Below, in pieces: positions 29,252 through 39,907 of a DNA stretch of 39,908 nt (its first letter is position 1; each line of letters begins with the position of its first letter). A model generated the notes under the pieces. That model searched no databases, was not told where the DNA came from, and was given only the letters and a program-made list of their open reading frames with translations. Position numbers and translations under genes: made by a program. The DNA is from an uncultured Syntrophaceae bacterium (GTDB lineage Bacteria; Desulfobacterota; Syntrophia; Syntrophales; UBA6807): contig CAZKGS010000001.1 of the NCBI GenBank assembly GCA_964552105.1, forward strand, positions 1-39,908, written 5' to 3'.

Positions 29252-30033
29252 GCTTCTTTCTTGTTTCGTAGTGTAAGAATCCGTAAAATCAGGAACAGGG
29301 CCAGACAAACAGAAACCAGCCAGACTGCAACGGGCTGCGAGTATTTAAGTCCGTATGCCTCGAAGCGTTCGTAGATCATTACCGGTGCGATCATTGGATG
29401 ATAGGCAACGATCACGACCGCACCAAATTCACTGATCGCGCGGGCGCTGCACATTATAATGCCAATTAGCATACTGCGCCAGGCAAGAGGAAACGTAATC
29501 CTGAAAAAGGTGCTGAACATTGAGGCTCCAAGACTCCGTGACACATTCTCAAGTCTCGGGGATATGCTTTCAAATCCGTTCTTGACGGCATTCACATAGA
29601 AAGGCAATCCCACGAAAGTCAGAACCACGACAATGCCTGTTACGCTTCCCATTATTCTTATGCCGAGGTCGCTGAAAAATTGACCTATCCAGTGATTTCT
29701 TCCTGCAACACTGAGGATTGCGATTCCCACAACGGGATGCGGGATTACAATAGGAAGATCGATAATACTTTCAACAAATCGCTTGCCTGTGAAATCGGTT
29801 CGGGCCAGAAGGTAAGCGAGGGGCGTTCCAAAGACAAAGGAGATAATTGCGGCCAACCCGGCTGTGTAAATACTCAGCCAGATCGACCGCACAACATCTT
29901 TGTCCTTAATGGTTTCCTTAAGCATGGCAAAAGAAGGCGCCGTCATCATTTCGACGAGGGGGATAAGGATAAAGGCCATTATTACAATGCCGCATGAAAT
30001 AGTTATCCAGAAAAAAGGTTCTTTTGACCTCAT
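29248..30033 (-). CDS. wtpB: Tungstate/molybdate ABC transporter permease (WtpB/ModB-like)
   Basis: Six TM segments, the IDLPIVIPHPVVG motif and the EAA-loop region SRSLGASMFSTFFRITFPL. Confidence 0.8.
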   Translation of the reverse strand: MRSKEPFFWITISCGIVIMAFILIPLVEMMTAPSFAMLKETIKDKDVVRSIWLSIYTAGLAAIISFVFGTPLAYLLARTDFTGKRFVESIIDLPIVIPHPVVGIAILSVAGRNHWIGQFFSDLGIRIMGSVTGIVVVLTFVGLPFYVNAVKNGFESISPRLENVSRSLGASMFSTFFRITFPLAWRSMLIGIIMCSARAISEFGAVVIVAYHPMIAPVMIYERFEAYGLKYSQPVAVWLVSVCLALFLILRILTLRNKKEA

Positions 30034-30046
30034 TTGTTGTTACCTG

Positions 30047-31060
30047 TTACTCTTTAATTTCCACCAGTCTTTGCAGTCCCGCAGGCAGTATTGCCATCAT
30101 TTCTGCTGTTGAAACCCTGCATGGGATAAAGGGAGGCTGTCCCATTTCTTTGAGAATTTTAAGTCCGCCCTCCGGATTAAGCATATACTGTAAAAAGGCA
30201 ATGGCTGCCTCCCTGTTGGGCGCATCTTTTATCAGAGTAACTCCGTACGTGCAAGATTTTCCATTTTTCTTTATGGTCGTACCCGGTTTTTTGCCCGTGA
30301 GTTCAACCATCGCCTGCTTATAAAAGTTGTCATACTTATAATTTCCCAGGTTTATCTGATCGGGAAGTTCCACGAATTTGAGGCCATGCTGAACAGCTAC
30401 GGATCGGTACTCCCAGGCATAATCCATATTTCCGGTCTGTAGAAGGGCAACCAATTCCACCGATTTGGGTCTGATGTTTTCCTTCGGGCGGTTGTTGATA
30501 AGATTTTGATAAAGCCCTGGTTTTTTATAGTGTTTTTCTGCCAGTTGAAGGACCATGAGAGATCGGTAACCGCAGGGATCAGCGTTCGGATCGGAGTGTC
30601 CCCACACCACGCCCTTCTTTGTCAGAATCTTGTACCAGTTCCCGGCATTAATTTTATTGGCGTATCTGCTTTTGTCCGTGTAGCAGAGGACCAAACGATT
30701 CGTGGCAAAGCGAATATTCCAGTTCGCATATTCCGGGATGAGCATTGTGTTAATGACGGTGAAATCAGCGGATGCCATAATGTCGCAGGGTTTTTTGAGA
30801 TCGGATATCTTTCTCGCGCACCTGCGGCTTCCCGCTGCTTCCCGTACAATATCCACTCCCGGGTGTTTGGCCTCAAACGCCTTTTCCATTTTGGCGAGTG
30901 GAACGGTCAAGCTCCCGGCCTGAAATATAATCACCTTGCCGGTTGGCTGTTTATCCTTTGCCCATCCCGTATGGGGATAGGCTAGTAGACTTGCCATAAA
31001 AAGCGTCAAAACCGGTAGGATTACCAGAAGCCATTTGCATCTATTTTTCTTTTTCATCAT
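30047..31060 (-). CDS. wtpA: WtpA-type tungstate/molybdate periplasmic binding protein
   Basis: Signal peptide, then [54 protein letters not shown] and [20 protein letters not shown]. These closely follow the archaeal/anaerobe WtpA family as I recall it. AAGGAGGAG RBS. Confidence 0.8.
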
Positions 31061-31126: not shown

Positions 31127-31621
31127 TCACTCGCTTCTATGCTTACCTGCTTCGCCCTTAAACATGTCCAGATGTGGGTTGCTCACCCATCCGCTTTTTG
31201 CATCCGGTTTGTTGTCAAACAGAGGGACATAGGGTTTAATATCCAGAAGTGGAGTGCCATCCAGAATATCCACATCTCCAATCTCCAACAGGTTGCCCTT
31301 GACATTTTCTAATTTAACAATAGAAAGACCTATGGGATTTGGCCTGTTAAAATGCCTTATTGAGAAGATTCCGTGTTGCTCGTCCTCTAAGAAAGGCATT
31401 GAAATCAAAGAGTAACCGTTGGACAGATGAAAATGGTAGATGAGGATAAGATGGGAGAATTCTTCTATATCCTTGAGCCCGTCTGCGTATTCCTGGAATA
31501 TCTCTACTGTACCCTTCGCATCTTTAGCAAATGTGCCTTGAATAGGGGCATTTGCCTTATCAGTAAATTCTGAATGTATAACCCCAATAGCCTTGTATTT
31601 TATCTCATTTATATTGCTCAA
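31127..31621 (-). CDS. TsaA/TrmO (YaeB, UPF0066) family protein
   Basis: IGVIHSEF, APIQG, FSHLILIYHFH, RPNPIGLSIVKL and DGTPLLDIKPYVP align with TrmO. TTG start with GAGGA 8 nt upstream. Confidence 0.8.
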   Translation of the reverse strand: MSNINEIKYKAIGVIHSEFTDKANAPIQGTFAKDAKGTVEIFQEYADGLKDIEEFSHLILIYHFHLSNGYSLISMPFLEDEQHGIFSIRHFNRPNPIGLSIVKLENVKGNLLEIGDVDILDGTPLLDIKPYVPLFDNKPDAKSGWVSNPHLDMFKGEAGKHRSE

Positions 31622-31690: not shown

Positions 31691-31897
31691 TTACTCCCTT
31701 CCTACCATAATTTCCGTAGCTTTGATTAAAGCAACAGCCTTGTCACCAGCTTTTAACCCTAATCCTTCAGCCGATTTTTTTGTAACAATGGCAACTACTT
31801 CATTTTCCCCTATCTTGAGGGTAATCTCTGCCATGACCTGCCCCATGTTTATCTCCTTGACTGTACCAGCCAATTTGTTTCTTGCACTTACTTTCAT
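31691..31897 (-). CDS. mop: Mop/TOBE molybdate- or tungstate-binding protein (molbindin)
   Basis: 68 aa from ATG 31897 (AGGGGG RBS): MKVSARNKLAGTVKEINMGQVMAEITLKIGENEVVAIVTKKSAEGLGLKAGDKAVALIKATEIMVGRE, a typical single Mop domain. Confidence 0.8.
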   Translation of the reverse strand: MKVSARNKLAGTVKEINMGQVMAEITLKIGENEVVAIVTKKSAEGLGLKAGDKAVALIKATEIMVGRE

Positions 31898-32026
31898 CGT
31901 AGATGCCCCCTGTTTTTCATAGCTTGTATCCGGATATGTTGTGAAACCACATTTTTTAAATATAGCTTTTCCTTCGGGAGATGCAACAAAATTCACAAAT
32001 TCTTTTACCAGCTTTGTATTCCCCTC
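31898..32026 (-). pseudogene. Remnant of the C-terminus of a ModA-type periplasmic binding protein, in frame with mop
   Basis: After a TGA at 32027-32029 the minus-strand frame reads EGNTKLVKEFVNFVASPEGKAIFKKCGFTTYPDTSYEKQGAST and runs into the Mop ATG with no stop. KEFVxFxxSPEGxxIFKKxGF is the usual C-terminal helix of ModA-like binding proteins. No N-terminal part of that protein is present upstream. Confidence 0.5.
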
Positions 32027-32253
32027 TCAATTCAACTTTTCTTTGTCAGTTTTTTTGACTGAGTTCGCCAGAAGGATCTCTTGATTAAATATGCGATCTG
32101 GTAGTTTATGTCAATATTAAATATTATTGGTTAGTATAGCATATATTAGGACATTATTCTCCTGTTATATGCTTTATCCGTAACTCCTGCGTCTTTTGTG
32201 CAAGTATTGGTATAGACAGCTAAAGGTTGAAAGGTGAGAGTAAAAAACCAATT

Positions 32254-32410
32254 TTGACGACTTAGTAAAAAGTAGAACCTCCTCTCCCCTGGCAGGAGGG
32301 GGTAAAGGGAAGGGGGCATAATGACATGAAATAATGTTGCATTCACCCTCACCCCAACCCTCTCCCATCTAGGGAGAGGGGGCATTTTTGACTTTTTGTG
32401 AGACTGTCAA
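32254..32410. repeat. Full copy of MITE-like family A (inverted relative to 1101-1247)
   Basis: Ends are TTGACGACTTAGTAAAAAGTA (32254-) and TGACTTTTTGTGAGACTGTCAA (32389-32410). The interior, CCTCTCCCCTGGCAGGAGGGGGTAAAGGGAAGGGGGCAT ... ATTCACCCTCACCCCAACCCTCTCCCATCTAGGGAGAGGG, is collinear with the reverse complement of copy 1. Confidence 0.7.
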
Positions 32411-32535: not shown

Positions 32536-32563
32536 TTGACAATACATTATACTATGATATGTT
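32536..32563 (+). promoter_or_regulatory. Possible sigma-70 promoter of the TonB-dependent operon
   Basis: TTGACA (32536-32541), a 16-nt spacer, then TATGTT (32558-32563), about 60 nt upstream of the receptor ATG. The -10 box is weak. Confidence 0.3.
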
Positions 32564-32622: not shown

Positions 32623-34701
32623 ATGAATGTAAGGTTTTTGTCAGCACTGTTATTAGTTTTTATCTTATTGTTTTTTTCGAGTCCTGCATGGTCGGCAGGG
32701 GACGCTGATCAGCCGGATTATAAGGTCTACACATTGGGGGAAATCCTTGTAAGTGAAGAGAACCCGGCGGTTAAGGAGATTGCCATAACGAATGAGGTAA
32801 CAGCCGAAGATATCAAGGCTACAAACAGCCGAACAGTTGCTGAGGCCCTGAGCTATGTTCCCGGGATTCAGGTTACCACAGGCCGGAAAGCTGAGCCAAA
32901 TATTTCCATTCATGGATTTGGTCAGGGGCAGACATTGATTCTTGTTGATGGTGTTCCATATTATGAAACGAATTATGGAAAATTGAATCTTGATCAGATT
33001 CCAGCGGATATTATTGCGAAGATTGAAGTCACAAAAGGGGCCCCCTCGGTCCTCTACGGGCCAAATGCTGAAGCAGGAGTTATAAATATTGTTACCAAGA
33101 AGCCTTCTGAAAAACCTTCGGCGTCGGCAAGCTTTGAGGTAGGGGAAAAAAGCTATAACAGGGAATCGGTTTCTCATGGCATGAAGACCGGTATATTTAA
33201 TTACTGGCTCAATTACACGCACAGCGAGACTGATGCCTGGAAAATGGCCAACAGTTTTGATCCGAGATTAGGGACTACTACAAAGAAACCTGGGGGGAAA
33301 TCCCAGGCTATATTGGAAGATGGCAGTTTCCGCGATAATTCTGACTCCGAGAGTAACAGTTTCTGGGCAAAATTGGGCATAGAACCAAATCCGGACTCTG
33401 AATATTATGTGAATTTTCATCTTATAAAGACAGAAAAAGGTATGCCTTCATCAATCTCTGAAAATAGTGTATTTCCGAACAGGCCCGCATTTTCTCAATT
33501 TGGCCGGATAGACAAATATAATGACTGGGGTATCGACTTAAATGGGAGGCAGAAAGTTATTGATCAACTGATCTTGAAGACAAATTTCTTCTATCATAAT
33601 CACGAAGATGATTATGTCTCTTATGATGATCAAACTTACAGTACACCTCTCGGGATCAGCACATACAAAGACTATCTCGCGGGAGGCAATTTGTTGGCTG
33701 ATTACAAGCCTGTGGAGTGGAACGTCTTGAGAGCTGCCGTTCACTTCAAGGTTGATTCTCACAGGGAACGCGATGAAACATATCTGCCATTTGCGGAATC
33801 GTTATCGCATACCGGATCCATTGCCCTCGAGAATGAATTCAATTTAATAGAAAACCTCTCCATAGTAGCCGGGTTGAGTTATGATTCATTTCGAGTTGTG
33901 AAGGCAAAGTATAACGACACCGACGGCAGTGGCAACCTTATCAATCAGAATGATGCGGCTAGCTCTAATACAAAAGATGCTTATAACCCGATGATCGGTG
34001 CGGTTTATACGTTTGCGGATTCTACCAAACTTTTCGGATCTGTAGCCAAAAAGACGCGTTTTCCCACTTTGAGTCAGCTTTACTCGACCAAGTCTGGAAA
34101 TCCTGATCTGGGTGCGGAACAGAGTATTAATTATACGGTTGGTGCTTCCCACACCTTCTTTGATATATGCAGGGCGGAACTATCCTTTTTCCATCACGAT
34201 ATATCTGACTGGATAAGTCGTGACGGACCCGTCTGCTACGGTAATACATATCAAAACTGGGCCGAGATCAAGATGTATGGTTTTGAGTTCAGCTCCGATA
34301 TTTACCCGATGGAAGATCTTATCCTTAAGTTGGGTTATACCTACAACTACGCTCGCGATAAAAGTGACGGCCATGTAACGGATAATGTTACAGACGTTCC
34401 CGAACACAAGATAGATGCCCAAATCCAGTACACCATTCCTTCGCTGAAAACGAAGCTTAATCTTAACGGTATGTATATGGCAAAAACGTACTCGCAATTG
34501 CCAACGCCATCAAAGCCTGCACTTGAAGAACGCGAGGGGGATGACTACTGGCTTTTTGGTGCGAGAATTACACAGCCTGTTATGAAATATCTTGAGGCAT
34601 ATATCGCAGTCAATAACATGTTTGACAATGATTATGAGCCGGATGATGGCTTCCCTGCTCGTGGAAGGGAAATTTTCTGTGGCATTACAGCAAAATACTA
34701 A
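32623..34701 (+). CDS. TonB-dependent outer-membrane receptor (plug plus beta-barrel)
   Basis: Signal peptide ending AWSAGD, TonB-box-like TLGEILVSE, plug motifs (TAEDIKATNSRTVAEALSYVPGIQV, IHGFGQGQTLILVDGVP, IEVTKGAPSVLYGPNAEAGVINIVTKKP) and a long barrel ending ...GREIFCGITAKY. AAGGAGG RBS. Confidence 0.9.
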   Translation: MNVRFLSALLLVFILLFFSSPAWSAGDADQPDYKVYTLGEILVSEENPAVKEIAITNEVTAEDIKATNSRTVAEALSYVPGIQVTTGRKAEPNISIHGFGQGQTLILVDGVPYYETNYGKLNLDQIPADIIAKIEVTKGAPSVLYGPNAEAGVINIVTKKPSEKPSASASFEVGEKSYNRESVSHGMKTGIFNYWLNYTHSETDAWKMANSFDPRLGTTTKKPGGKSQAILEDGSFRDNSDSESNSFWAKLGIEPNPDSEYYVNFHLIKTEKGMPSSISENSVFPNRPAFSQFGRIDKYNDWGIDLNGRQKVIDQLILKTNFFYHNHEDDYVSYDDQTYSTPLGISTYKDYLAGGNLLADYKPVEWNVLRAAVHFKVDSHRERDETYLPFAESLSHTGSIALENEFNLIENLSIVAGLSYDSFRVVKAKYNDTDGSGNLINQNDAASSNTKDAYNPMIGAVYTFADSTKLFGSVAKKTRFPTLSQLYSTKSGNPDLGAEQSINYTVGASHTFFDICRAELSFFHHDISDWISRDGPVCYGNTYQNWAEIKMYGFEFSSDIYPMEDLILKLGYTYNYARDKSDGHVTDNVTDVPEHKIDAQIQYTIPSLKTKLNLNGMYMAKTYSQLPTPSKPALEEREGDDYWLFGARITQPVMKYLEAYIAVNNMFDNDYEPDDGFPARGREIFCGITAKY

Positions 34702-34722
34702 TACGGCAAAGCCACAAGGGCT

Positions 34723-34757
34723 GAGCAATGAGCAATGAGCGATGAGGACTGAAGGCT
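34723..34757 (+). repeat. Heptamer tandem repeat immediately upstream of the tonB start
   Basis: GAGCAAT GAGCAAT GAGCGAT GAGGACT GAAGGCT followed by ATG (34758). The last units double as the RBS. Confidence 0.6.
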
Positions 34758-35456
34758 ATGAAATTCCGGCATTGTGTTTTCATAGCAATCGTTTTCCACC
34801 TTTCTATTATGGTAATTCCGATGGAAGCCACTGTCGGCAGGAAATATGGAAACGTTAAGTTAATTATTGCGGATGGGGAGATTGCCCTGTCTTCGAATCC
34901 TGAACAAAAAAAACGTGTAAAAATTACCCCTCCGGTAATTCGAAAAGATGCGACTCTTCGGAAGAAGAAAAAGACCATCAGAAAAAGCATCAAAAGAAAG
35001 TATGTTGAAAAACGAAAGGCTCCGTCGCTGATAAAACCCCCTTTGGATGTTCAGCCTGATGCAGCAGACACATTATCGATGGATGTTTCTGTTTTAAATC
35101 ATGAGACTGATAATCCTGATGTCCAAGATCCTGCGCATGCACCCTTAGCCGTGACAGGGGGCGAACCTGTAGTGGTGAAGTTTGGTTCAGCGGAAGGGCC
35201 GCATTTCCAGAGACGGGTTTTGCCAAGGTATCCCTTTATGGCAAAGAGATTAAACAAAGAAGGGGAAGTGATCCTGATGCTGACCATAGATGAAGATGGG
35301 AAGCTTACAAATGTAGAAGTAATAAAAAAAGCGGGATTCGGATTCGATGAAGAGGCCCTGAAAGCTGTCTGGAAATCTCTCTTTTCCCCTTCTGTGATAA
35401 ACGGCAGGTCCATGATCTGTAGGGTAATTCTCCCTGTGCGGTTTGAATTGAGGTAA
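34758..35456 (+). CDS. tonB: TonB-family energy transducer
   Basis: N-terminal TM segment with His (VFIAIVFHLSIMVI), a K/R/P-rich linker, and a C-terminal TonB_C domain (PRYPFMAKRLNKEGEVILMLTIDEDGKLTNVEVIKKAGFGFDEEALKAV). Confidence 0.85.
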   Translation: MKFRHCVFIAIVFHLSIMVIPMEATVGRKYGNVKLIIADGEIALSSNPEQKKRVKITPPVIRKDATLRKKKKTIRKSIKRKYVEKRKAPSLIKPPLDVQPDAADTLSMDVSVLNHETDNPDVQDPAHAPLAVTGGEPVVVKFGSAEGPHFQRRVLPRYPFMAKRLNKEGEVILMLTIDEDGKLTNVEVIKKAGFGFDEEALKAVWKSLFSPSVINGRSMICRVILPVRFELR

Positions 35457-35461
35457 TTCAG

Positions 35462-36007
35462 GTGATTAATTTTTTTCTAAAAGGGGGGCTGCTGATGTGG
35501 CCCATACTTTTTTGTTCCATTATGGCCTTGGCCATAACTATTAATAAAACAGTGCAATTCAAGATTCTTCTGAAACAGCTCGCTTGTCCTGCGCCGGATA
35601 TTTTCGACAATAAACCGGATCATATCGCTTCATTGCTGGATGCTCTGGAAAAAAAACTGGACGAAAAAGAGGTCTCATTGATTGGTGCTGGGGCGCTGAA
35701 AGTCCTGGAAAAGGGAGTAGGTTCTTTATCCCTTATTGCCGCTATTACACCGCTGCTGGGTCTTACCGGTACAGTGCTGGGTATGATAGCCAGTTTTCGT
35801 GTCATTGCTGCCCAGGGAAGTGTTTTGAGGGTAGAGATGCTGGCAAATGGGATATGGGAAGCCCTGATTACGACGGCTGCCGGACTTCTCGTGGCCATAC
35901 CGGTTGAAATAGCCTACTACTATCTCGAAGGACGTCTGGACGAGATTGCTATCGGCATGAAGCGCTTGGCGATGCATTTTAACCCGGAGAAGAAAGATGG
36001 AATTTAG
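35462..36007 (+). CDS. exbB: ExbB/TolQ/MotA-family proton channel
   Basis: 181 aa, three TM segments. GGLLMWPILFCSIMALAITINK at the N-terminus and LGLTGTVLGMI...ALITTAAGLLVAIP at the C-terminus. Confidence 0.85.
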   Translation: MINFFLKGGLLMWPILFCSIMALAITINKTVQFKILLKQLACPAPDIFDNKPDHIASLLDALEKKLDEKEVSLIGAGALKVLEKGVGSLSLIAAITPLLGLTGTVLGMIASFRVIAAQGSVLRVEMLANGIWEALITTAAGLLVAIPVEIAYYYLEGRLDEIAIGMKRLAMHFNPEKKDGI

Positions 36008-36392
36008 AAGAAGAAAACGAGTTTTTCTTCGTACAAACATTGCTCCCCTTGTGGATGTCGTTTTTCTCCTTTTGCTTTTTTTCATGCTGACATCACGTAT
36101 AGCGGCGGAACCGGCTATCGAAATCAAACTCCCGGAATCGAAAACCGCCGCTGTGCAGGAAGTGGAGGATATAGTCATTTCAATAACGAAAGAAGAGATG
36201 ATTTATATGGGAGGGGAAAAGATTGCCCTGAATGAAATTTTATCCACAATCAAGAACAGGTTAAGGGGATGTAAGCAGTCAGTAAAGATAAAAGCAGATA
36301 AAAATGTCTCACTCGGTTTTCTGGTGAAAGTAGTGGATGAAGTTAAACTTTCCGGAGCCCCGGCTTTTAATATTGTAACAGAGAGGATGTAA
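35997..36392 (+). CDS. exbD: ExbD/TolR-family protein
   Basis: 131 aa. NIAPLVDVVFLLLLFFM TM segment followed by a periplasmic domain (VKIKADKNVSLGFLVKVVDEVKLSG). Overlaps exbB by 11 nt. Confidence 0.85.
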   Translation: MEFRRRKRVFLRTNIAPLVDVVFLLLLFFMLTSRIAAEPAIEIKLPESKTAAVQEVEDIVISITKEEMIYMGGEKIALNEILSTIKNRLRGCKQSVKIKADKNVSLGFLVKVVDEVKLSGAPAFNIVTERM

Positions 36393-36402
36393 GGAGTCTG
36401 AA

Positions 36403-37410
36403 ATGTTAAAAAAAATACTGATCTTTTTAATTTCCCTTGAGTTAATTCTTTTTGCCTTTCAGATATGGATAGTTCCTGTCTCCGTGTTAAGTGTCACGGG
36501 TGAGGTAAAACAGAAGCTGCACATGGATATGGATGATCTTACAGAGTTCGATTGTGCCACCGTCAGGCTTAACGAGGTATCGAAGGATGGACGTTTTCAC
36601 GGTGTGTTTTGTTATAGGGGCCCAACACTGAGGGAATTGCTCGAATCTGCCATAATTGAAAAGTCAAAACCGGATTTTAACAAAGACCTTGACCTTGCCA
36701 TTGTAGTCCGCAACAAATCAGGGGACGAGGTCGTTCTCTCGTGGGGTGAAATATTTTACAGGAACCCGGCAGACGTTATAATAGCACTGGAGGCCATGTC
36801 CGTTATGCCTCACCATGACAAAGCTCATGTCCCCGAAGTTTACTGGTCCTGGCTGGATCAGCTCAATCGCAAAGTCGGTATGCCGAGGCTTGTAATTGCA
36901 AATGATTTTTACACGGATCGCTCCCTCGAAGAAATTACGGAGATTAAGGTGGTTGATTTGCACCCAAAGGTCGACAAGAAAGTTATGAACATTCTGTTTT
37001 CACCTGAATTCACTGTATCCGGCGATGTAGAACATCCTTTGGATATCGATACATTGTCTTCTTGGCAGCGTAAAGAGATTCTTTATAAAGAAGTCGGAGA
37101 TGGACAGGGTTATCATGGACTGAAGCTGGCAGGTGGTGTGCCCCTGGTGGACATCCTTAAGAAGGCGGGTATCAGGGACGATTTATGTTCTGCCGTTGTA
37201 GTTTCTGCCCCGGATGGTTATCGGACTCTTTTATCATATGGCGAACTGTTCATGGCGCCTTCCGGCAGGAATGTTATGATCGCTGATATGAAAGCCAAAA
37301 GACCAGTGAAAAAAGGGGGCAGGTTTTTCATGGTCATACCGGATGATCTCTCCGCGGACAGGAATGTAAAGGCTGTAGAAAAAATAGAGGTAATAAGCCT
37401 GCAAAGGTAA
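36403..37410 (+). CDS. Signal-anchored periplasmic protein with two tandem sulfite-oxidase/YedY-like (Oxidored_molyb-like) domains
   Basis: Domain 2 (about 37009-37401): TVSGDVEHPLDIDTL...GGVPLVDILKKAGI...VVVSAPDGYRTLLSYGELF...GGRFFMVIPDDLSADRNVKAVEKIEVISL follows the V-G-x-V...W/GV-x-L-x-D-L-L...DGY...P-x-R-x-V-x-P...VK-x-V-x-x-I pattern of small Moco-oxidoreductase-fold proteins. Domain 1 (about 36484-36990) is a divergent copy (SVTGEVKQKLHMDMDDL...LRELLESAII...IVVRNKSGDEVVLSWGEIF...PRLVIANDFYTDRSLEEITEIKVVDL). Confidence 0.55.
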   Translation: MLKKILIFLISLELILFAFQIWIVPVSVLSVTGEVKQKLHMDMDDLTEFDCATVRLNEVSKDGRFHGVFCYRGPTLRELLESAIIEKSKPDFNKDLDLAIVVRNKSGDEVVLSWGEIFYRNPADVIIALEAMSVMPHHDKAHVPEVYWSWLDQLNRKVGMPRLVIANDFYTDRSLEEITEIKVVDLHPKVDKKVMNILFSPEFTVSGDVEHPLDIDTLSSWQRKEILYKEVGDGQGYHGLKLAGGVPLVDILKKAGIRDDLCSAVVVSAPDGYRTLLSYGELFMAPSGRNVMIADMKAKRPVKKGGRFFMVIPDDLSADRNVKAVEKIEVISLQR

Positions 37411-37424
37411 AAATCTTAAATTCC

Positions 37425-38198
37425 ATGGAAACCGGACTTACACTATTTAAGAGCTGCACCGCGATTGCATCAATGTTGTACCTTGTCTCGGGTATTTCTT
37501 GTTTTATCCATGCAAAACGGATGGGGATCTTTCTAATCCTCATCGGATTGACGGTCAATATCGCCATCCTTGTTATGAGAGGACATGTCGAGGGAAGGTG
37601 GTATCTTGATCTGATGTTTACCGAGGGGGCGGAATTGCTTGTCCTCCCTGCCGGGATGGCGTGTGTCGTCCTCTTCCTCCTGTGGCGAGGTGCCGATACC
37701 GAAGGGCTTATTGTTATGATTCCCCTTGTGATAACTTCCATTATTCCCTTTGTTATCCCGGAGGATGTTGTCCTTCCTTCAATGAAGGCTCAAGTGCTGG
37801 TGGCCCCACTATTTTTTCTGACAGAGGCACTAAGCGCCGCCCTCTTTATTTCTGCAGGTGTCCTGGCCTTTGCATACCTTGTCTCCGGCTTGAATTCTGA
37901 AATGGTCTACAGCCGTAGGTTTGCCCTTTGGGGCTTTCTCATATTTACCTTATGCCAGATTATCGGGGCAATATGGGCATATATTGGATGGTCATACCCC
38001 TTTTCATGGAGCAGTAGACATCTGGCGAGCGCCTCGGTCTGGTGTGTCTATGCGGCCCTGATACATGTTCGTCTGATCGAAATACGACCGGAGATAAAAG
38101 CCGTTTGTGCGGTGCTGGGATGCATTCCTTTGATATACATTTTCTATCACCATGAGATAGTAGAAGTCTTGCACGGGGGGGTGTTTTGGTTGATATGA
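37425..38198 (+). CDS. CcsA/ResC-like (heme-handling protein family) polytopic membrane protein with a degenerate WWD motif
   Basis: GAIWAYIGWSYPFSWSSRHLASASVWCVYAALIH (37965-38066) aligns with the CcsA/ResC core GAxWAxxAWGxYWxWDPKExWxLxxWxxYAxxLH. The flanking G-A-x-W-A, S-W, W-x-x-Y-A and L/I-H are retained, but W-D-P-K-E is replaced by W-S-S-R-H. About 7-8 TM segments. Confidence 0.6.
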   Translation: METGLTLFKSCTAIASMLYLVSGISCFIHAKRMGIFLILIGLTVNIAILVMRGHVEGRWYLDLMFTEGAELLVLPAGMACVVLFLLWRGADTEGLIVMIPLVITSIIPFVIPEDVVLPSMKAQVLVAPLFFLTEALSAALFISAGVLAFAYLVSGLNSEMVYSRRFALWGFLIFTLCQIIGAIWAYIGWSYPFSWSSRHLASASVWCVYAALIHVRLIEIRPEIKAVCAVLGCIPLIYIFYHHEIVEVLHGGVFWLI

Positions 38199-38941
38199 GA
38201 CGCATCCCGGCCTTTTTAGAACGTATGGATATTGGATTCTGGTTACTCATTGCGGCATCAATAACCCTTTTTTGTGGTGCACTGATTGCAGATTTCAATC
38301 CGTCGGAATTAAGAAGATTAAATACACTCCACTTTCCGGAATGGCTGGCCGGGTTTTACAATCGCCCTGAGCTCTATCTATGGATACTTGTGCTCTTTGC
38401 CATACTCTTTATGCTTGTGGTCGATACAATCTTCTGTACCGTTGCGTACATTAAAAATCATTGCAGCTCCGGGATATCATTCAGAAAACTCAGCATAATC
38501 ATGTTTCATGTGTGTTTTTTATTGTTTCTCTCGGGACATTTTTTGAATGAATTTTCAGGGGTTAACGAGACACTGATCCTGGAAAGGGGGACTGTAACCG
38601 GCATGGGTGCGGACGGGCGGCTGATGATTAAACCGGCATCTATTGAGAGAAGCTCATTTAATATAGAAGGGCAGGTAGTCTCAAGGGGTGTAAAGACGGT
38701 CTTATATGTCAGGAACAATGATGGAAATATGACAACGATCTGTCCTGAAACCATGAATCCGGACTTTGCATCAGGATACAGCTTCCACATTTCTATGAAA
38801 GACAGGGATTTATCAGATAAACAGGTCAGGATTATCGTGCGGAGAGATTATGGTCTGTACCCCTTTGCTATTGGCGGGATAATAACCATTGTGGCCATTT
38901 TTTTCTACATACTGAGTTCAATCCATCCTCGCAGGTTATAG
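38195..38941 (+). CDS. Short ResB/CcsB-like membrane protein
   Basis: The ATG at 38195 overlaps the preceding stop (ATGA). It has an N-terminal TM segment, YLWILVLFAILFMLVVDTIFCTV (a ResB-like second TM segment ending in Cys), and SIIMFHVCFLLFLSGHFL followed by a roughly 100-aa soluble segment (ETLILERGTVTG...NIEG...TVLYVRNNDG...MNPDFASGYSFHIS) and a final TM segment. This is ResB topology at about half the usual length. Confidence 0.5.
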   Translation: MRRIPAFLERMDIGFWLLIAASITLFCGALIADFNPSELRRLNTLHFPEWLAGFYNRPELYLWILVLFAILFMLVVDTIFCTVAYIKNHCSSGISFRKLSIIMFHVCFLLFLSGHFLNEFSGVNETLILERGTVTGMGADGRLMIKPASIERSSFNIEGQVVSRGVKTVLYVRNNDGNMTTICPETMNPDFASGYSFHISMKDRDLSDKQVRIIVRRDYGLYPFAIGGIITIVAIFFYILSSIHPRRL

Positions 38942-39025
38942 ATCTGCAGCCCATGAAAATCCGGGTTAAATCATGTTTTGTAATGTTATTGACCACTATA
39001 ACGTTAAGTGGTAAGAACGATACTT

Positions 39026-39907
39026 ATGAAAGAAGAACTTCTTACTACAAAGGAACTTGCCGATTTTCTGAGGCTTAACGAGAAGAAAATATACCAACTC
39101 GTTAAAGAGAGTGGTATCCCCCATGTAAGGATTGCGGGGAAGTGGCTCTTTCCTAAAGATCATATCATTCGCTGGATTGATGAAAACGTGCAAAGGGAAA
39201 AAGACATCCACATTATAGGGAGTGACGATATGCTTCTGGGAAGGCTTTTGTCGATTTATTCTCGTGAGAATTTCCCCGAATCCATTGCTTTTTATTCGTC
39301 AGTGGGCAGCCTGAGAGGTATTCAGGCCCTGTCCGGGAAGAAAGGACAGGCATGCTGCACACATCTCCTTGATATGGAAACGGGAGAATATAATCTTCCC
39401 ATTCTGAGCAGGATACTTTCCCCTCAACGGTATGTCGTAGTCAATTTATGGCACAGGGAACAAGGTCTTATCGTTAAAAAAGGCAACCCTCTCGCCATAA
39501 AGGGTCTGGGGGATCTTGCAGGAAAGAAGGCAAGGTTCGTTAACAGGAATGAGGGGTCCGGCACGCGGACTCTGCTCGAGTATTTCCTGATGGAGAAGAG
39601 TTTATCTGAAAAGGATATCATCGGTTTTGCTGACGAAGTCAATACTCATGTAGAAGTAGCCCTTAAGGTCTTCTTTGATGAAGCGGACGTGGGTTTGGGT
39701 ATCGAGTATGTTGCCCATCTCCTCCCTCTCGATTTTATTCCACTCAGGGAAGAACGTTTTGATCTTGTTGTTCCAAAAGAACTCTGGTCGACAAGCGTCA
39801 TGAAAGGGTTTATTTCTTATATCGAACCAACAAAAATAAGCAAATTATCTCATAATCTGCCCGGTTATAATTTAAAAGATACGGGGAAAATTATTTTTGA
39901 AGGTTAA
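39026..39907 (+). CDS. Transcriptional regulator: excisionase-type HTH plus PBP-like oxyanion-binding domain (TunR-like)
   Basis: The N-terminus LLTTKELADFLRLNEKKIYQLVKESGIPHVRIAGKWLFPKDHIIRWI is an HTH_17/excisionase-type motif. The remainder (IHIIGSDDMLL...VGSLRGIQALSGKKGQACCTHLLD...VNRNEGSGTRTLLE...FDLVVPKE) fits the PBP_like domain found in MoeA-associated and tungstate-responsive TunR-type regulators. TAA at 39905-39907. The track ORF begins at GTG 39008. Confidence 0.65.
   Translation: MKEELLTTKELADFLRLNEKKIYQLVKESGIPHVRIAGKWLFPKDHIIRWIDENVQREKDIHIIGSDDMLLGRLLSIYSRENFPESIAFYSSVGSLRGIQALSGKKGQACCTHLLDMETGEYNLPILSRILSPQRYVVVNLWHREQGLIVKKGNPLAIKGLGDLAGKKARFVNRNEGSGTRTLLEYFLMEKSLSEKDIIGFADEVNTHVEVALKVFFDEADVGLGIEYVAHLLPLDFIPLREERFDLVVPKELWSTSVMKGFISYIEPTKISKLSHNLPGYNLKDTGKIIFEG

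What the first reader, a model, noticed from the sequence alone, without database searches (positions are those of the whole stretch)
32623..38941. Seven-gene TonB-dependent operon whose inner-membrane part is a CcsA/ResB-like pair instead of an ABC or MFS importer
Seen in the sequence: seven same-strand ORFs with junctions of 56, 5, -11, 10, 14 and -4 nt. They encode a TonB-dependent receptor, TonB, ExbB, ExbD, a signal-anchored protein made of two sulfite-oxidase/YedY-like domains, a CcsA/ResC-like polytopic protein and a short ResB-like protein.

Established knowledge: TonB-dependent uptake loci normally continue with a periplasmic binding protein plus an ABC (or MFS) importer. CcsA/ResB form the System II cytochrome c synthetase and heme exporter, and they usually sit with thiol-redox partners or cytochrome genes.

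Here there is no ABC or MFS component, no thioredoxin-like partner, and no CxxCH motif in any of the seven proteins.

Inference: this looks like a dedicated envelope-spanning module in which a diverged heme-handling-protein pair and a duplicated Moco-fold periplasmic protein take the place of the usual binding-protein/ABC leg. Two hypotheses fit. (a) Uptake or handling of a tetrapyrrole (heme or corrinoid), using the ligand-translocating ability of the CcsBA fold. (b) Uptake of a W/Mo chelate with periplasmic processing, given the flanking wtpABC, mop and TunR-like genes. I do not recognise this as a described system.
Basis: partly seen in the sequence, partly recalled or inferred. Interest (0 to 1): 0.85.

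Follow-up and report, generated by a model that had tools for sequence, protein, structure and literature searches.

The report
Tungsten-linked TonB uptake operon, odd helpers
This is a real, widely conserved seven-gene operon of anaerobic bacteria that most likely helps bring tungsten (or molybdenum) across the outer membrane to feed the neighbouring tungstate pump, using three undescribed helper proteins borrowed from cofactor-binding and haem-handling families.

Summary
The seven ORFs, their junctions and the absence of CxxCH are confirmed. TBDR, TonB, ExbB and ExbD are clear. ORF5 is a Sec-exported tandem of two minimal sulfite-oxidase-fold domains that lack the Mo-binding cysteine (PruR-like). 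ORF6 is a diverged CcsA-type protein. ORF7 is a 248-aa "mini-ResB", supported at family level only.

The trio does not replace an ABC importer. WtpABC lies divergently next door. In 47 well-flanked homologous loci, 94% pair ORF5 with a TBDR, 70% carry a tungstate/molybdate-type ABC system within 10 kb, and only 49% have ORF6/7. One homologous operon sits behind a Moco/Tuco riboswitch; others sit beside TunR-like regulators.

Most ORF5 homologues carry a CxxCH haem-c site. The window's clade lost it, always keeps ORF6/7, and its ORF6 lost the P-His1 histidine but kept the membrane-haem histidines.

Best reading: a tungsten-responsive TonB-dependent acquisition module feeding WtpABC, with ORF6/7 supplying haem or electrons to ORF5. 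I found no description of it in the paper library. The cargo and chemistry are inferred, not shown.

The parts
28214..29308 (-). wtpC-like ABC ATPase with a C-terminal TOBE domain
   Evidence: Pfam ABC_tran and TOBE. NCBIfam tungstate_WtpC scores 399 bits, below the cut-off of 440.
29248..30033 (-). wtpB-like ABC permease
   Evidence: Pfam BPD_transp_1. NCBIfam tungstate_WtpB scores 306 bits, below the cut-off of 340.
30047..31060 (-). wtpA, tungstate ABC substrate-binding protein
   Evidence: NCBIfam equivalogs NF003196 (452.8 bits, cut-off 355) and TIGR03730 (386.6 bits, cut-off 242.75) are both passed.
31127..31621 (-). TrmO/TsaA-like protein inside the wtp-mop gene string
   Evidence: Pfam TrmO_N, E=7.5e-41. 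TIGR00104 scores 134 bits against a cut-off of 93. TrmO-like genes recur next to ORF5 in L086 and L088, and also occur in L045, L063 and L103.
31691..31996 (-). Mop/TOBE molybdate/tungstate-binding protein
   Evidence: Pfam TOBE, E=8.6e-17. TIGR00638 Mop scores 68.1 bits against a cut-off of 55.
32107..32117 (+). TATGTCAATAT motif, a candidate operator of the TunR-like regulator
   Evidence: It is the only exact match in the window. The same 11-mer lies in the wtpA-TBDR or tunR-TBDR intergenic region of L007, L009, L010, L011, L077, L047 and L067, which is 7 of the 9 matches among 88 loci. Its function is inferred.
32536..32563 (+). Promoter-like site of the seven-gene operon
   Evidence: TTGACA, 16 nt, TATGTT, with an extended TG. 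The -35 hexamer is invariant, and the flanking AATATGTCA..TTTCAGG is conserved in several of the six orthologous upstream regions (A6).
32623..34701 (+). TonB-dependent outer-membrane receptor, 692 aa, with a signal peptide
   Evidence: Pfam Plug and TonB_dep_Rec_b-barrel. No NCBIfam equivalog cut-off is reached, so substrate class is undefined. A TBDR lies within 6 kb of ORF5 homologues in 94% of loci.
34758..35456 (+). TonB
   Evidence: Pfam TonB_C, 63.6 bits, with an N-terminal TM segment.
35462..36007 (+). ExbB
   Evidence: Pfam MotA_ExbB, 84.7 bits. Public gene calls use a start 33 nt downstream, giving 170 aa.
35997..36392 (+). ExbD
   Evidence: Pfam ExbD, 96.3 bits.
36403..37410 (+). 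ORF5: an exported tandem of two minimal SUOX-fold (PruR-like) domains. It has no Mo-ligand Cys, and the haem-c site present in most homologues is lost here.
   Evidence: - The AF2 model has pLDDT 88.6.
- Foldseek matches SorA, YedY, SoxCD and nitrate reductase at E about 1e-7, and PruR 7kom at TMt 0.72.
- The YedY Mo-Cys aligns to V59.
- All family members have Sec or lipoprotein signals.
- CxxCH sits at a conserved site in most homologues but is deleted here.
37425..38198 (+). ORF6: an 8-TM CcsA/CcmC-family (haem-handling protein) homologue with a re-written WWD loop, GWSYPFSWSxRH
   Evidence: - Pfam Cytochrom_C_asm scores 32.1 bits against a cut-off of 29.9.
- TIGR03144 scores 37.7 bits against 187.6, so it is not met.
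- The motif and H199, H214 and H243 are invariant.
- The wider-family alignment is, and the TM segments.
38195..38941 (+). ORF7: a 4-TM 'mini-ResB' with a roughly 105-aa periplasmic beta-rich loop
   Evidence: - W50, W63, C81, H105 and H115 are invariant across 31 diverse members.
- 20 of 31 members hit Pfam ResB, with a best E-value of 3e-5; the window's own protein scores E=0.72.
- 173 cluster representatives were found, all about 250-295 aa.
- It always follows ORF6.
- The AF2 model is poor, at pLDDT 48.
39008..39907 (+). TunR-like regulator (HTH_17 plus PBP_like)
   Evidence: Pfam PBP_like at E=6.9e-59 and HTH_17 at E=3.4e-13. It occupies the same position after ORF7 in L001, L007, L012, L013, L017, L077, L089-L091, L093 and L106.

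Best explanation
The seven genes are the outer-membrane and periplasmic half of a tungsten-responsive (possibly W/Mo-responsive) acquisition system. The inner-membrane half is the divergently transcribed WtpABC tungstate importer, not ORF6/7.

**Proposed steps**
1. When tungsten is scarce, the TunR-like regulator derepresses both divergent gene sets. This is inferred from the gene architecture and a shared conserved motif.
2. The TBDR, energised by its own TonB-ExbB-ExbD, moves a scarce tungsten species across the outer membrane. The species could be tungstate itself, or a thio-, poly- or ligand-bound form. Its identity is not shown.
3. ORF5 receives or processes that cargo in the periplasm, so that WtpA can bind free oxyanion. 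ORF5 is a Sec-exported protein made of two cofactor-less sulfite-oxidase-fold domains, and in most relatives it is also a monohaem cytochrome c. This step is inferred.
4. ORF6/7 is a miniaturised, diverged CcsBA-type haem-handling pair that serves ORF5. It keeps the two membrane-haem histidine positions: ORF6 H214, and ORF7 H105 or H115. I infer that it holds a haem in the membrane. It then either passes electrons to ORF5, as the accessory haem of CcmF is proposed to do, or hands haem to ORF5 non-covalently in this clade, which has lost the CxxCH site.

**Status of the evidence**
- Shown: gene content, protein folds, conserved linkage and the regulatory context.
- Inferred: the cargo, the chemistry ORF5 performs, and the role of ORF6/7.
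For: **Operon and domains**
- The ORFs, junctions and Pfam assignments are confirmed.

**Link to tungsten**
- WtpA passes its equivalog cut-offs. WtpB, WtpC, Mop and a TunR-architecture regulator flank the operon.
- ORF5-seeded survey of 185,579 species genomes, counting the 47 loci with at least 3 kb on each side:
  - TBDR within 6 kb in 94%
  - TupA/WtpA-like SBP, WtpB-like permease or a Mol-type (Peripla_BP_2 plus FecCD) importer within 10 kb in 70%
  - TunR-like regulator in 21%
  - Mo/W-bisPGD oxidoreductase in 17%
- L086 has a Moco/Tuco riboswitch (RF01055, 59.9 bits against a cut-off of 36). It lies directly upstream of TBDR, Peripla_BP_2, FecCD, ATPase, ORF5, TrmO-like and a TOBE-ATPase. 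A second riboswitch precedes two TupA-like SBPs.
- In L008 the order is TBDR, ORF5, TonB, two TupA-like SBPs, permease, ATPase, all on one strand.
- The TATGTCAATAT motif is shared by TBDR upstream regions in several lineages. The promoter is conserved.

**ORF5**
- It has the SUOX/PruR fold, no Mo-Cys and Sec or lipoprotein signals.
- CxxCH is present in 40 of the 50 well-flanked ORF5 copies and in most of the 80-odd ORF5 copies aligned.

**ORF6/7 serves ORF5**
- An ORF6-seeded metagenome survey found TBDR and ExbBD adjacent in 9 of 11 informative loci, and ORF5 in 8.
- Every CxxCH-less ORF5 has ORF6/7 beside it: 10 of 10 and 9 of 9.
- The narrow ORF6 clade (GWSYPFSWSxRH, with P-His1 replaced by Ser) co-occurs only with the ORF5 clade that has the 2-aa deletion and an invariant PHH.
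- The positions of the TM-His residues follow the CcsBA and CcmF description in PMC10663686.
Against: - There is no experimental evidence for any step.
- The TBDR reaches no NCBIfam substrate-specific cut-off.
- About 28% of well-flanked loci show no W/Mo gene within 10 kb.
- The TupA-like class was defined by BLAST clustering plus Pfam and NCBIfam hits that fall below the equivalog cut-off. Some members could bind other oxyanions.
- A haem- and SUOX-fold protein has no obvious chemistry to perform on tungstate.
- ORF5's fold is that of pterin/Moco binders, which fits a cofactor cargo at least as well as an oxyanion cargo.
- Two ORF6/7 pairs stand alone, without a TBDR or ORF5 (L002; L004, the same contig as L099; L105 also stands alone).
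- Haem binding by ORF6/7 is inferred from residue positions only. The ORF7 structure model failed, and PDB sequence profiles did not reach CcsBA.
- In L063 the TBDR is preceded by a c-di-GMP-I riboswitch, not by a W/Mo signal.
Confidence: 0.5

Rival explanations
1. The CcsA/ResB-like pair is the inner-membrane translocator and ORF5 is the periplasmic binding protein. Together they replace a binding-protein/ABC leg and import a tetrapyrrole (haem or corrinoid) or a W/Mo chelate.
For: - There is no ABC or MFS gene inside the seven-gene operon.
- CcsBA-type proteins do move a planar cofactor through the membrane (PMC10663686).
- About 40% of ORF5 homologues carry a periplasmic TP_methylase-like domain, which is a tetrapyrrole-methylase fold.
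- One public annotation of a TBDR fragment calls it a cobalamin receptor.
Against: - WtpABC is adjacent in the window. W/Mo-type ABC importers are within 10 kb in 70% of homologous loci and sit in the same operon in L008 and L086.
- ORF6/7 is absent from half of the TBDR-ORF5 loci, so it cannot be the obligatory inner-membrane leg.
- No cobalamin riboswitch was found in the window or in 23 homologous loci. One locus has a Moco riboswitch instead.
- Inward transport by a haem-handling protein is unknown.
- The TP_methylase fusion correlates with an APC permease (18 of 21), not with ORF6/7.
Confidence: 0.1
2. This is a cofactor or pterin salvage model. The TBDR imports a pterin-type molecule released by other anaerobes, such as molybdopterin, Moco/Wco or a precursor. 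ORF5, with its pterin/Moco-binding fold, is its periplasmic carrier, with the haem keeping it reduced. ORF6/7 or another carrier takes it inward. The system is switched on together with WtpABC when tungsten cofactor is short.
For: - Each ORF5 domain is a minimal SUOX fold. Its closest small structural match is PruR, a periplasmic pterin-binding protein that also lacks the Mo-Cys (PMC11194511).
- Export is Sec-dependent, so any cofactor must be acquired outside the cytoplasm.
- Regulation by a cofactor-sensing (Moco/Tuco) riboswitch in L086.
- The family is confined to anaerobes, where free reduced pterins could survive.
Against: - Bacterial Moco or pterin import is not known.
- PruR's pterin-stacking residues and PW motif were not demonstrated in ORF5. 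The Cys-equivalent position is Val.
- The tight linkage is to oxyanion-type ABC importers (Wtp, Tup, Mol), which suggests that the final cargo is the oxyanion.
- Moco riboswitches also control plain molybdate and tungstate transporters.
Confidence: 0.15
3. ORF6/7 is simply a dedicated System II-type cytochrome c synthetase for ORF5's haem-c site. In the window's clade, where the site is gone, it is a decaying relic.
For: - Most ORF5 homologues have CxxCH at one conserved site.
- Broad-family ORF6 proteins keep candidate P-His1, TM-His and P-His2 residues.
- Dedicated CcsBA isoenzymes for single special cytochromes are known in Wolinella (my own recall, not checked here).
Against: - 24 of 40 CxxCH-bearing ORF5 loci have no ORF6/7 nearby, so general maturation suffices.
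- All CxxCH-less ORF5s keep ORF6/7. This holds for 10 of 10 and 9 of 9 cases and at least three independent losses.
- The narrow-clade ORF6 and ORF7 are strongly constrained. ORF6 has 47 invariant columns, including the whole re-written WWD loop, across sequences only 38-45% identical. ORF7 has 33 invariant columns. That is not decay.
Confidence: 0.1
4. This is a housekeeping ccsBA pair, the cell's general cytochrome c maturation system, that happens to sit beside a TonB locus.
For: ORF6 passes the Pfam Cytochrom_C_asm cut-off. I could not check whether the genome has another ccs or ccm system.
Against: - ORF6 scores 37.7 bits against the 187.6-bit CcsB equivalog cut-off.
- The canonical WWD motif and P-His1 are missing.
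- ORF7 is 248 aa, and its whole family is 250-295 aa. I recall canonical ResB as roughly twice that length, but did not check this here.
- The pair co-varies with ORF5 and is linked to TBDR and ExbBD in 9 of 11 independently seeded loci.
- It is absent from half of the related loci, in lineages I recall as cytochrome-rich (lineage trait not tested).
Confidence: 0.03

Closest known systems
TonB-dependent metal acquisition systems (TBDR plus TonB-ExbBD feeding a periplasmic binding protein and ABC importer), such as siderophore, haem, cobalamin, Ni, Zn or Cu systems
   Same: It has a Plug plus barrel receptor with its own TonB, ExbB and ExbD. A high-affinity ABC importer (WtpABC) lies adjacent. 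Metal-responsive regulation is implied by a TunR-like regulator and, in a relative, a Moco riboswitch.
   Different: - The associated importers are tungstate/molybdate types (Wtp, Tup, Mol).
- I found no description of a TonB-dependent tungsten route with these partners in the paper library.
- The conserved periplasmic partner is a haem and SUOX-fold protein, not a classical binding protein.
CcsBA (ResB/ResC), the System II cytochrome c synthetase and haem exporter, and the wider haem-handling protein family (CcmC, CcmF)
   Same: - ORF6 is a Cytochrom_C_asm family member with an 8-TM core and a Trp-rich periplasmic loop at the WWD position.
- A His lies 15 residues after that loop, which is the TM-His position.
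- A His lies in the C-terminal periplasmic tail, which is a P-His2 candidate.
- ORF7 has the ResB-like order of three TMs, a periplasmic beta domain and one TM, with invariant His in TM3 and a WW...N(T/L)xxC...R motif.
- The two genes are always adjacent and overlapping.
   Different: - The WWD motif is rewritten to GWSYPFSWSxRH.
- P-His1 is Ser in this clade.
- ORF7 is roughly half my recalled length for ResB.
- There is no CxxCH client or thiol-redox partner in the operon.
- The CcsB equivalog cut-off and the ResB Pfam cut-off are not met by the window's proteins.
- The pair is linked to a TBDR and a tungsten locus rather than to cytochrome genes.
PruR, the periplasmic pterin-binding SUOX-fold protein of Agrobacterium and Vibrio (PDB 7kom, 7kos; PMC11194511)
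   Same: It is a small, secreted SUOX-fold domain without the Mo-coordinating cysteine and without catalytic add-on domains. The structural match has TMt 0.72 and rmsd 3.1 A over 143 columns.
   Different: - ORF5 is a tandem of two such domains.
- It is ancestrally a c-type cytochrome.
- It is encoded with a TBDR and W transporters, not with a DcpA-type c-di-GMP enzyme.
- The PW motif of PruR is not present.
MsrPQ (YedYZ): a periplasmic SUOX-fold enzyme fed with electrons by a haem-b membrane partner. Also FoxB/PepSY-type periplasm-facing haem reductases that act on TBDR cargo.
   Same: The logic is the same: a periplasmic SUOX-fold protein encoded next to a polytopic membrane protein with conserved TM histidines. 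A redox helper is encoded beside a TBDR.
   Different: - ORF5 has no Moco and no Tat signal.
- The membrane partner belongs to the CcsBA family, not to the YedZ/FRD or PepSY_TM families.
- The resemblance is functional analogy only. It is drawn from my own recall of these systems and is untested.
TunR/WtpABC/TupABC tungsten homeostasis and Moco-riboswitch regulons
   Same: WtpA is a true equivalog. The regulator has the HTH_17 plus PBP_like architecture that I recall for TunR. Mop/TOBE is present. In L086 a homologous operon is riboswitch-controlled.
   Different: To my knowledge, known regulons comprise ABC importers and cofactor-biosynthesis genes. A TBDR, ORF5 and ORF6/7 module has not been listed as part of them.

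Membership tests
TonB-dependent transport system | Receptor with an N-terminal Plug and a 22-strand barrel domain | tested here: met
   Pfam Plug 90.9 bits and TonB_dep_Rec_b-barrel 110.3 bits.
TonB-dependent transport system | Energising TonB (C-terminal domain), ExbB (MotA_ExbB) and ExbD | tested here: met
   TonB_C 63.6 bits, MotA_ExbB 84.7 bits and ExbD 96.3 bits, all above cut-off.
TonB-dependent transport system | Assignment to a substrate-defined receptor family (siderophore, haem, B12 and so on) | tested here: not met
   The best NCBIfam hits are TonB-siderophor at 179.7 bits (cut-off 223.5), TonB-hemin at 148 bits (cut-off 317) and BtuB at 116-121 bits (cut-offs 600-836). All are below cut-off.
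CcsBA / System II cytochrome c synthetase | CcsA-type core (Pfam Cytochrom_C_asm) | tested here: met
   32.1 bits against a cut-off of 29.9, covering residues 106-243. Most family members carry PF01578 in the precomputed annotation.
CcsBA / System II cytochrome c synthetase | CcsB/CcsA equivalog-level similarity | tested here: not met
   TIGR03144 scores 37.7 bits against a cut-off of 187.6. PDB profile searches did not reach CcsBA.
CcsBA / System II cytochrome c synthetase | Canonical WWD motif (WGxxWxWDPKE) | tested here: not met
   The invariant replacement is GWSYPFSWSxRH, in which Asp becomes Ser and Glu becomes His. The wider family has GW(G/A/S)xx(F/I)xWxx(R/K)H. The canonical motif is quoted from my own recall.
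CcsBA / System II cytochrome c synthetase | [quoted passage not shown] | tested here: not met
   The P-His1 position, about 52 residues before the loop, is Ser137 in the window's clade and His in most broader-family members. The P-His2 candidate H243 is invariant in the clade. Positions were assigned from the alignment and the literature, not from a structure.
CcsBA / System II cytochrome c synthetase | TM-haem histidine pair, one in CcsB TM3 and one in the CcsA TM after the WWD loop | tested here: inconclusive
   ORF6 H214 is invariant and lies 15 residues after the loop. ORF7 H105 and H115 are invariant in TM3 across 31 diverse members. Haem binding was not tested.
CcsBA / System II cytochrome c synthetase | ResB/CcsB partner (Pfam ResB, with a large periplasmic domain) | tested here: inconclusive
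   The window's ORF7 scores 9 bits (E=0.72) against a cut-off of 24.6. Of 31 family members, 20 hit ResB at E<=1, with a best E-value of 3e-5. The family is 250-295 aa. The AF2 model was unusable.
CcsBA / System II cytochrome c synthetase | A CxxCH apocytochrome client and a thiol-redox partner | tested here: not met
   None of the seven proteins has CxxCH or CxxC. No thioredoxin-like gene was found among the window ORFs annotated. ORF5 homologues outside this clade do carry CxxCH.
Sulfite oxidase (SUOX) family Moco enzymes (SorA, YedY/MsrP) | SUOX Moco-domain fold | tested here: met
   Foldseek probability is 1.00 for 2blf, 1xdq, 2xts, 1ogp and others, at E=1e-7 to 1e-5. Pfam Oxidored_molyb scores 26.3 bits against a cut-off of 24.
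Sulfite oxidase (SUOX) family Moco enzymes (SorA, YedY/MsrP) | Conserved cysteine that coordinates Mo | tested here: not met
   The YedY Cys aligns to V59 in 'RLNEV'. There is no invariant Cys anywhere in 36 family members.
Sulfite oxidase (SUOX) family Moco enzymes (SorA, YedY/MsrP) | Tat export of the cofactor-loaded protein (for periplasmic members) | tested here: not met
   The N-termini are Sec-type or lipobox signals without a twin-arginine motif. This was judged by reading alignment A3; no dedicated predictor was run.
PruR-type pterin-binding proteins | Small secreted SUOX fold that lacks the Mo-Cys | tested here: met
   Match to 7kom has TMt 0.72 and rmsd 3.1 A; 7kos is also hit. The features are as described in PMC11194511.
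PruR-type pterin-binding proteins | PW motif at the Cys position, pterin-stacking Tyr and Trp, and a pruR-dcpA operon | tested here: not met
   The Cys-equivalent residue is Val, not Trp. The gene context is a TBDR and W transport, not DcpA. The stacking residues were not mapped.
Tungstate acquisition regulon (WtpABC/TupABC, TunR, Moco riboswitch) | Physical linkage to a bona fide tungstate ABC importer | tested here: met
   WtpA passes its equivalog cut-offs. 70% of the 47 homologous loci have a W/Mo-type ABC system within 10 kb.
Tungstate acquisition regulon (WtpABC/TupABC, TunR, Moco riboswitch) | Control by a W/Mo-sensing device | tested here: inconclusive
   A regulator with TunR architecture is adjacent and there is a shared upstream motif. 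A Moco/Tuco riboswitch precedes the homologous operon in L086. There is no riboswitch in the window. Ligand response was not tested.
Tungstate acquisition regulon (WtpABC/TupABC, TunR, Moco riboswitch) | W-dependent expression and W transport | not testable with these tools
   This needs expression and uptake experiments.

The most novel reading that the evidence does not exclude
ORF6/7 may be a CcsBA-derived machine that has been re-tooled to serve a periplasmic protein without forming thioethers. In this clade it would deliver non-covalent haem, or electrons through a fixed membrane haem, to ORF5, which has lost its CxxCH. Alternatively it handles a pterin-type cofactor. All of this would sit inside what would be the first described TonB-dependent tungsten acquisition pathway.

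If the haem-delivery version is right, it would give a concrete candidate for how a periplasmic b-type haem protein obtains its haem.
Probability: 0.2. Interest if true: 0.88.

Novelty: new variant of a known kind. Interest (0 to 1): 0.72.

Why it matters
Tungsten and molybdenum enzymes drive formate, aldehyde, benzoyl-CoA and other key reactions in syntrophs, sulfate reducers and metal reducers. Outer-membrane passage of these oxyanions is usually assumed to be passive.

A TonB-energised route would change that picture. It is conserved across Thermodesulfobacteriota, Nitrospirota, Desulfuromonadales, Spirochaetota and Acidobacteriota, and it is wired to tungstate ABC importers, TunR-like regulators and a Moco riboswitch. 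It would alter how trace-metal limitation in anoxic habitats is understood.

The module also gives three currently uninformative annotations a context: "hypothetical protein", "molybdopterin-dependent oxidoreductase" and "precorrin-4 methylase".

In addition, it supplies a natural experiment for the haem-handling protein family. This is a miniature CcsBA whose WWD loop and P-His1 changed in step with loss of the CxxCH site in its partner. That makes questions about haem export and non-covalent haem delivery to the periplasm directly testable.

Tried and rejected
- **ORF7 structure.** The alignment had only 9 sequences and gave pLDDT 48. I did not use it for a fold search.
- **PDB sequence profiles.** Profile searches with the ORF6 and ORF7 families found no CcsBA, CcmF or CcmC. 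The link to those families therefore rests on Pfam hits and motif positions.
- **ORF6 family size.** The word-indexed homologue search for ORF6 returned only 20 proteins and suggested a tiny family. HMMs on the fetched loci showed the family is much broader.
- **CxxCH and ORF6/7 (idea rejected).** I first thought ORF6/7 occurs only with CxxCH-less ORF5. That is wrong: 16 of 40 CxxCH-bearing loci also have it. Only the converse holds.
- **ORF6/7 versus the APC permease (idea rejected).** I considered them alternative inner-membrane legs. They co-occur in at least 10 loci. The permease instead tracks the TP_methylase fusion.
- **Riboswitches.** Rfam found none in the window at gathering or relaxed thresholds. 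There is no cobalamin riboswitch in the 23 homologous loci scanned.
- **Literature.** Searches for a TonB-dependent tungsten or molybdenum system with these partners found nothing relevant. The TunR paper itself is not in the searchable library, so the TunR architecture is quoted from memory.
- **Source organism.** It could not be named. The window's species is not among the genome representatives (best ORF5 identity 62%), and cluster look-ups carry no names.
- **Other maturation systems.** I could not test whether the genome has a separate ccm or ccs system.

Full report
**Observation**

- TBDR: 32623-34701
- TonB: 34758-35456
- ExbB: 35462-36007
- ExbD: 35997-36392
- ORF5: 36403-37410
- ORF6: 37425-38198
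- ORF7: 38195-38941

The junctions are 56, 5, -11, 10, 14 and -4 nt. None of the seven proteins has CxxCH or CxxC. A promoter-like site (TTGACA, 16 nt, TATGTT, with an extended TG) lies at 32536-32563. Its -35 hexamer is invariant in six orthologous upstream regions. The rest of the window is a dcw cell-wall cluster, selB and unrelated genes.

**Domain assignments**

Pfam supports Plug plus barrel, TonB_C, MotA_ExbB and ExbD strongly. It supports Oxidored_molyb for ORF5 (26.3 bits, cut-off 24) and Cytochrom_C_asm for ORF6 (32.1 bits, cut-off 29.9) only marginally. NCBIfam places the receptor in no substrate-defined family. ORF6 scores 37.7 bits against the 187.6 needed for CcsB.

Pfam does not recognise the window's own ORF7 as ResB (E=0.72). 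However, 20 of 31 diverse family members hit ResB at E<=1, with a best E-value of 3e-5. The family numbers 173 cluster representatives in 1.84 billion, and all are about 250-295 aa. ORF7 has three TM segments, a roughly 105-aa beta-rich loop and a fourth TM segment. Across the family, W50, W63, C81, H105 and H115 are invariant. I call it a mini-ResB. That is a family-level inference, not a demonstrated membership.

**ORF5**

With a 36-sequence alignment, AlphaFold gave a confident model (pLDDT 88.6). Foldseek matches only SUOX-family Moco domains (SorA, YedY, SoxCD, nitrate reductase, plant and Thermus sulfite oxidases; E=1e-7 to 1e-5). Among small proteins it matches PruR, the periplasmic pterin-binding protein (7kom, TMt 0.72, rmsd 3.1 A).

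Several features show that ORF5 is not a Moco enzyme:
- The Mo-coordinating Cys of YedY aligns to V59.
- No Cys is invariant in the family.
- Every member starts with a Sec-type or lipoprotein signal, not a Tat signal.

ORF5 is therefore two PruR-like, cofactor-less SUOX domains in tandem (PruR features from PMC11194511). Unexpectedly, most homologues carry CxxCH at one conserved site in domain 1 (MPHxxCxxCHxPE). They are monohaem c-type cytochromes. The window's clade has a 2-aa deletion that removes both cysteines and leaves an invariant PHH.

**Conservation and neighbourhood**

I ran two independently seeded surveys.

(i) ORF5 profile against one genome for each of 185,579 species. This gave 80 loci from Syntrophales, Desulfobacterales, Desulfarculales, Desulfuromonadales/Geobacter, Thermodesulfovibrionales/Nitrospirota, Spirochaetota, Acidobacteriota and Abyssobacteria. 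Among loci with at least 3 kb on both sides:

| Feature near ORF5 | Share of loci |
|---|---|
| TBDR within 6 kb | 94% |
| ExbB | 49% |
| ORF6/7 | 49% |
| C-terminal TP_methylase-like fusion to ORF5 (18 of 21 have an APC permease next door) | about 42% |

(ii) The narrow ORF6 motif against metagenome contigs. This gave 18 loci, of which 11 have enough flank. Nine of those have TBDR plus ExbBD beside ORF6/7, eight also have ORF5, and two pairs stand alone.

It also shows that the invariant core is TBDR plus ORF5, and that ORF6/7 is an accessory.

**Link to tungsten**

- In the window, WtpA passes both NCBIfam equivalog cut-offs (452.8 bits against 355). WtpB, WtpC and Mop follow. A TrmO-like gene lies between wtpA and mop, and a regulator with HTH_17 plus PBP_like domains follows ORF7. 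I recall that architecture as TunR's.
- Clustering of unassigned neighbours across the 80 loci found TupA-like binding proteins in 23 loci, FecCD in 11, Peripla_BP_2 in 8, Mo/W-bisPGD oxidoreductases in 9 and LysR regulators in 7.
- 70% of 47 well-flanked loci have a Wtp-, Tup- or Mol-type ABC system within 10 kb.
- In L008 the order is TBDR, ORF5, TonB, two TupA-like proteins, permease, ATPase, all on one strand.
- In L086 a Molybdenum/Tungsten-cofactor riboswitch (RF01055, 59.9 bits) sits directly upstream of TBDR, Peripla_BP_2, FecCD, ATPase, ORF5, TrmO-like and a TOBE-ATPase. A second copy precedes two TupA-like genes.
- An 11-mer, TATGTCAATAT, occurs once in the window, in the mop-TBDR spacer. 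It recurs in the TBDR upstream spacer of seven other loci from more than one lineage.
- No riboswitch is present in the window itself. No cobalamin riboswitch was seen in the 23 loci scanned.

They contradict the premise that an ABC leg is missing.

**ORF6/7 as haem-handling proteins**

PMC10663686 gives the family's defining features. They are four core TMs, the WWD loop, P-His1 and P-His2. For CcsBA there is also a TM-haem ligated by one His in CcsB TM3 and one in the CcsA TM that follows the WWD loop.

| Feature | Finding in ORF6/7 |
|---|---|
| WWD loop | Rewritten to the invariant GWSYPFSWSxRH |
| TM-His position in ORF6 | H214, 15 residues after the loop, is invariant |
| TM-His in ORF7 TM3 | H105 and H115 are invariant |
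| P-His2 | H243, in the C-terminal periplasmic tail, is a candidate |
| P-His1 position | Ser in the window's clade, His in most of the broader family |

The membrane-haem site therefore looks preserved and the external active site looks remodelled.

The two remodelled partners go together. Every locus with the narrow ORF6 type has the CxxCH-less, PHH-type ORF5. Conversely, every CxxCH-less ORF5 has ORF6/7 beside it. That covers 10 of 10 and 9 of 9 cases and at least three independent losses, including L026/L087 and a second copy in L068. By contrast, 24 of 40 CxxCH-bearing loci do without ORF6/7.

This pattern argues against ORF6/7 being merely the lyase for ORF5's CxxCH, and against it being a relic. 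It is what one would expect if the pair supplies ORF5 with something that becomes indispensable once the covalent haem is gone. That something could be electrons through a fixed membrane haem, as proposed for CcmF's accessory haem. It could also be non-covalent haem.

**Mechanism I commit to (about 0.5)**

1. Tungsten scarcity derepresses the divergent wtp-mop string and the seven-gene operon.
2. The TBDR, with its private TonB-ExbBD, concentrates a tungsten species in the periplasm.
3. ORF5, serviced by ORF6/7, receives or converts it.
4. WtpABC imports the oxyanion.

Shown: genes, folds, linkage and regulatory context. Inferred: the cargo, ORF5's chemistry and haem in ORF6/7.

Rivals, with my estimates:
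- The trio replaces the ABC leg and imports a tetrapyrrole or chelate: 0.10.
- Salvage of a pterin or Moco-type cofactor, with ORF5 as carrier: 0.15. This is attractive because of the PruR fold, Sec export and cofactor-sensing riboswitch.
- A dedicated cytochrome c synthetase, now vestigial: 0.10.
- A housekeeping ccsBA pair: 0.03.

**Comparison and novelty**

The system works like a TonB-dependent metal acquisition system. It is a member of that kind for the TBDR, TonB and ExbBD parts. ORF6 is a member of the haem-handling protein superfamily, but it fails the CcsA-defining WWD and P-His1 tests. ORF7 is only ResB-like. ORF5 has the SUOX fold but fails the defining Cys test, so it is not a Moco enzyme. 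It resembles PruR in fold but not in motif or context.

I found no paper describing this module or a TonB-dependent tungsten route with these partners. The library is incomplete, however. I rate it a new variant of a known kind, with a genuinely novel accessory trio.

**Limits**
- The source organism is unidentified.
- I could not check the genome for a canonical ccm or ccs system.
- The TupA-like class rests on sub-cut-off hits.
- All functional statements are inferences from sequence and context.

Noticed in passing
L006:10001-11758, L016:10001-11746 and about 20 further loci (for example L014, L022, L027, L049, L054, L096, L098): About 40% of ORF5 homologues carry a C-terminal TP_methylase (CbiF/CbiL-like) domain. 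The domain sits behind a signal peptide and a haem-c site, so this SAM/tetrapyrrole-methylase fold would be periplasmic. In 18 of 21 such loci an APC-family permease lies next door. The function is unknown, and public annotations call these proteins precorrin-4 methylase.
   Followed up: partly
L086:4577-4695 and L086:2453-2572: There are two Moco/Tuco riboswitches (RF01055). One lies directly upstream of an operon ordered TBDR, Peripla_BP_2, FecCD, ATPase, ORF5, TrmO-like, TOBE-ATPase. The other lies upstream of two TupA-like genes.
   Followed up: yes
L063:7231-7311: A c-di-GMP-I riboswitch (47.8 bits) lies just upstream of the TBDR in a Pelobacter-like MAG. The operon there is TBDR, ORF5/TP_methylase and APC permease. 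This is a different regulatory input from the W/Mo signals seen elsewhere.
   Followed up: no
window 31127-31621 (-); also L086:10948-11751, L088:2607-3473, L045, L063, L103: A TrmO/TsaA-like gene sits inside the wtpA-mop string of the window. TrmO-like genes recur immediately next to ORF5 in Desulfuromonadales loci. This placement is unexpected for a tRNA methyltransferase family.
   Followed up: partly
window 32278-32382: A GC-rich inverted repeat (..CCTCTCCCCTGGCAGGAGGGGG.. / ..CCCTCTCCCATCTAGGGAGAGGGGG..) lies in the 626-nt mop-TBDR spacer. It gives weak spurious miRNA hits in Rfam and a terminator-like hairpin at 32358-32380. It looks like a REP-type intergenic repeat and is absent from the shorter spacers of orthologous loci.
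   Followed up: no
window 32107-32117; L007:6009-6019, L009:1716-1726, L010:702-712, L011:5752-5762, L077:5775-5785, L047:7678-7688, L067:5738-5748: The 11-mer TATGTCAATAT is conserved in TBDR upstream spacers of several lineages. A related AATATGTCA..TTTCAGG abuts the -35 box. These are candidate operators for the TunR-like regulator.
   Followed up: partly
window 37425-37628: Public gene calls for this contig start ORF6 at an internal codon, giving 194 aa and leaving a gap of about 200 nt. Homologues at 40-50% identity align from Met1, so the 257-aa form is the real one.
   Followed up: yes
L002:10001-11490, L004:10001-11517 (the same contig as L099), L105:9974-11478: Narrow-type ORF6/7 pairs also occur alone, with no TBDR or ORF5 within 10 kb. 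In L004 a tungsten-type aldehyde:ferredoxin oxidoreductase gene lies 4 kb away.
   Followed up: no
window 3489-5468 (-): This is a selenocysteine elongation factor SelB gene. The window's TBDR also gives weak hits, far below cut-off, to NCBIfam families of selenocysteine-motif TonB-dependent receptors (CU, PUIUD, PCPU, FCYXU types).
   Followed up: no
L026:9998-15308 and L087:10001-15310: The ORM2a-type Thermodesulfobacteriota carry two ORF5/TP_methylase paralogues flanking ORF6/7. Both lack CxxCH, and this is an independent loss of the haem-c site.
   Followed up: partly
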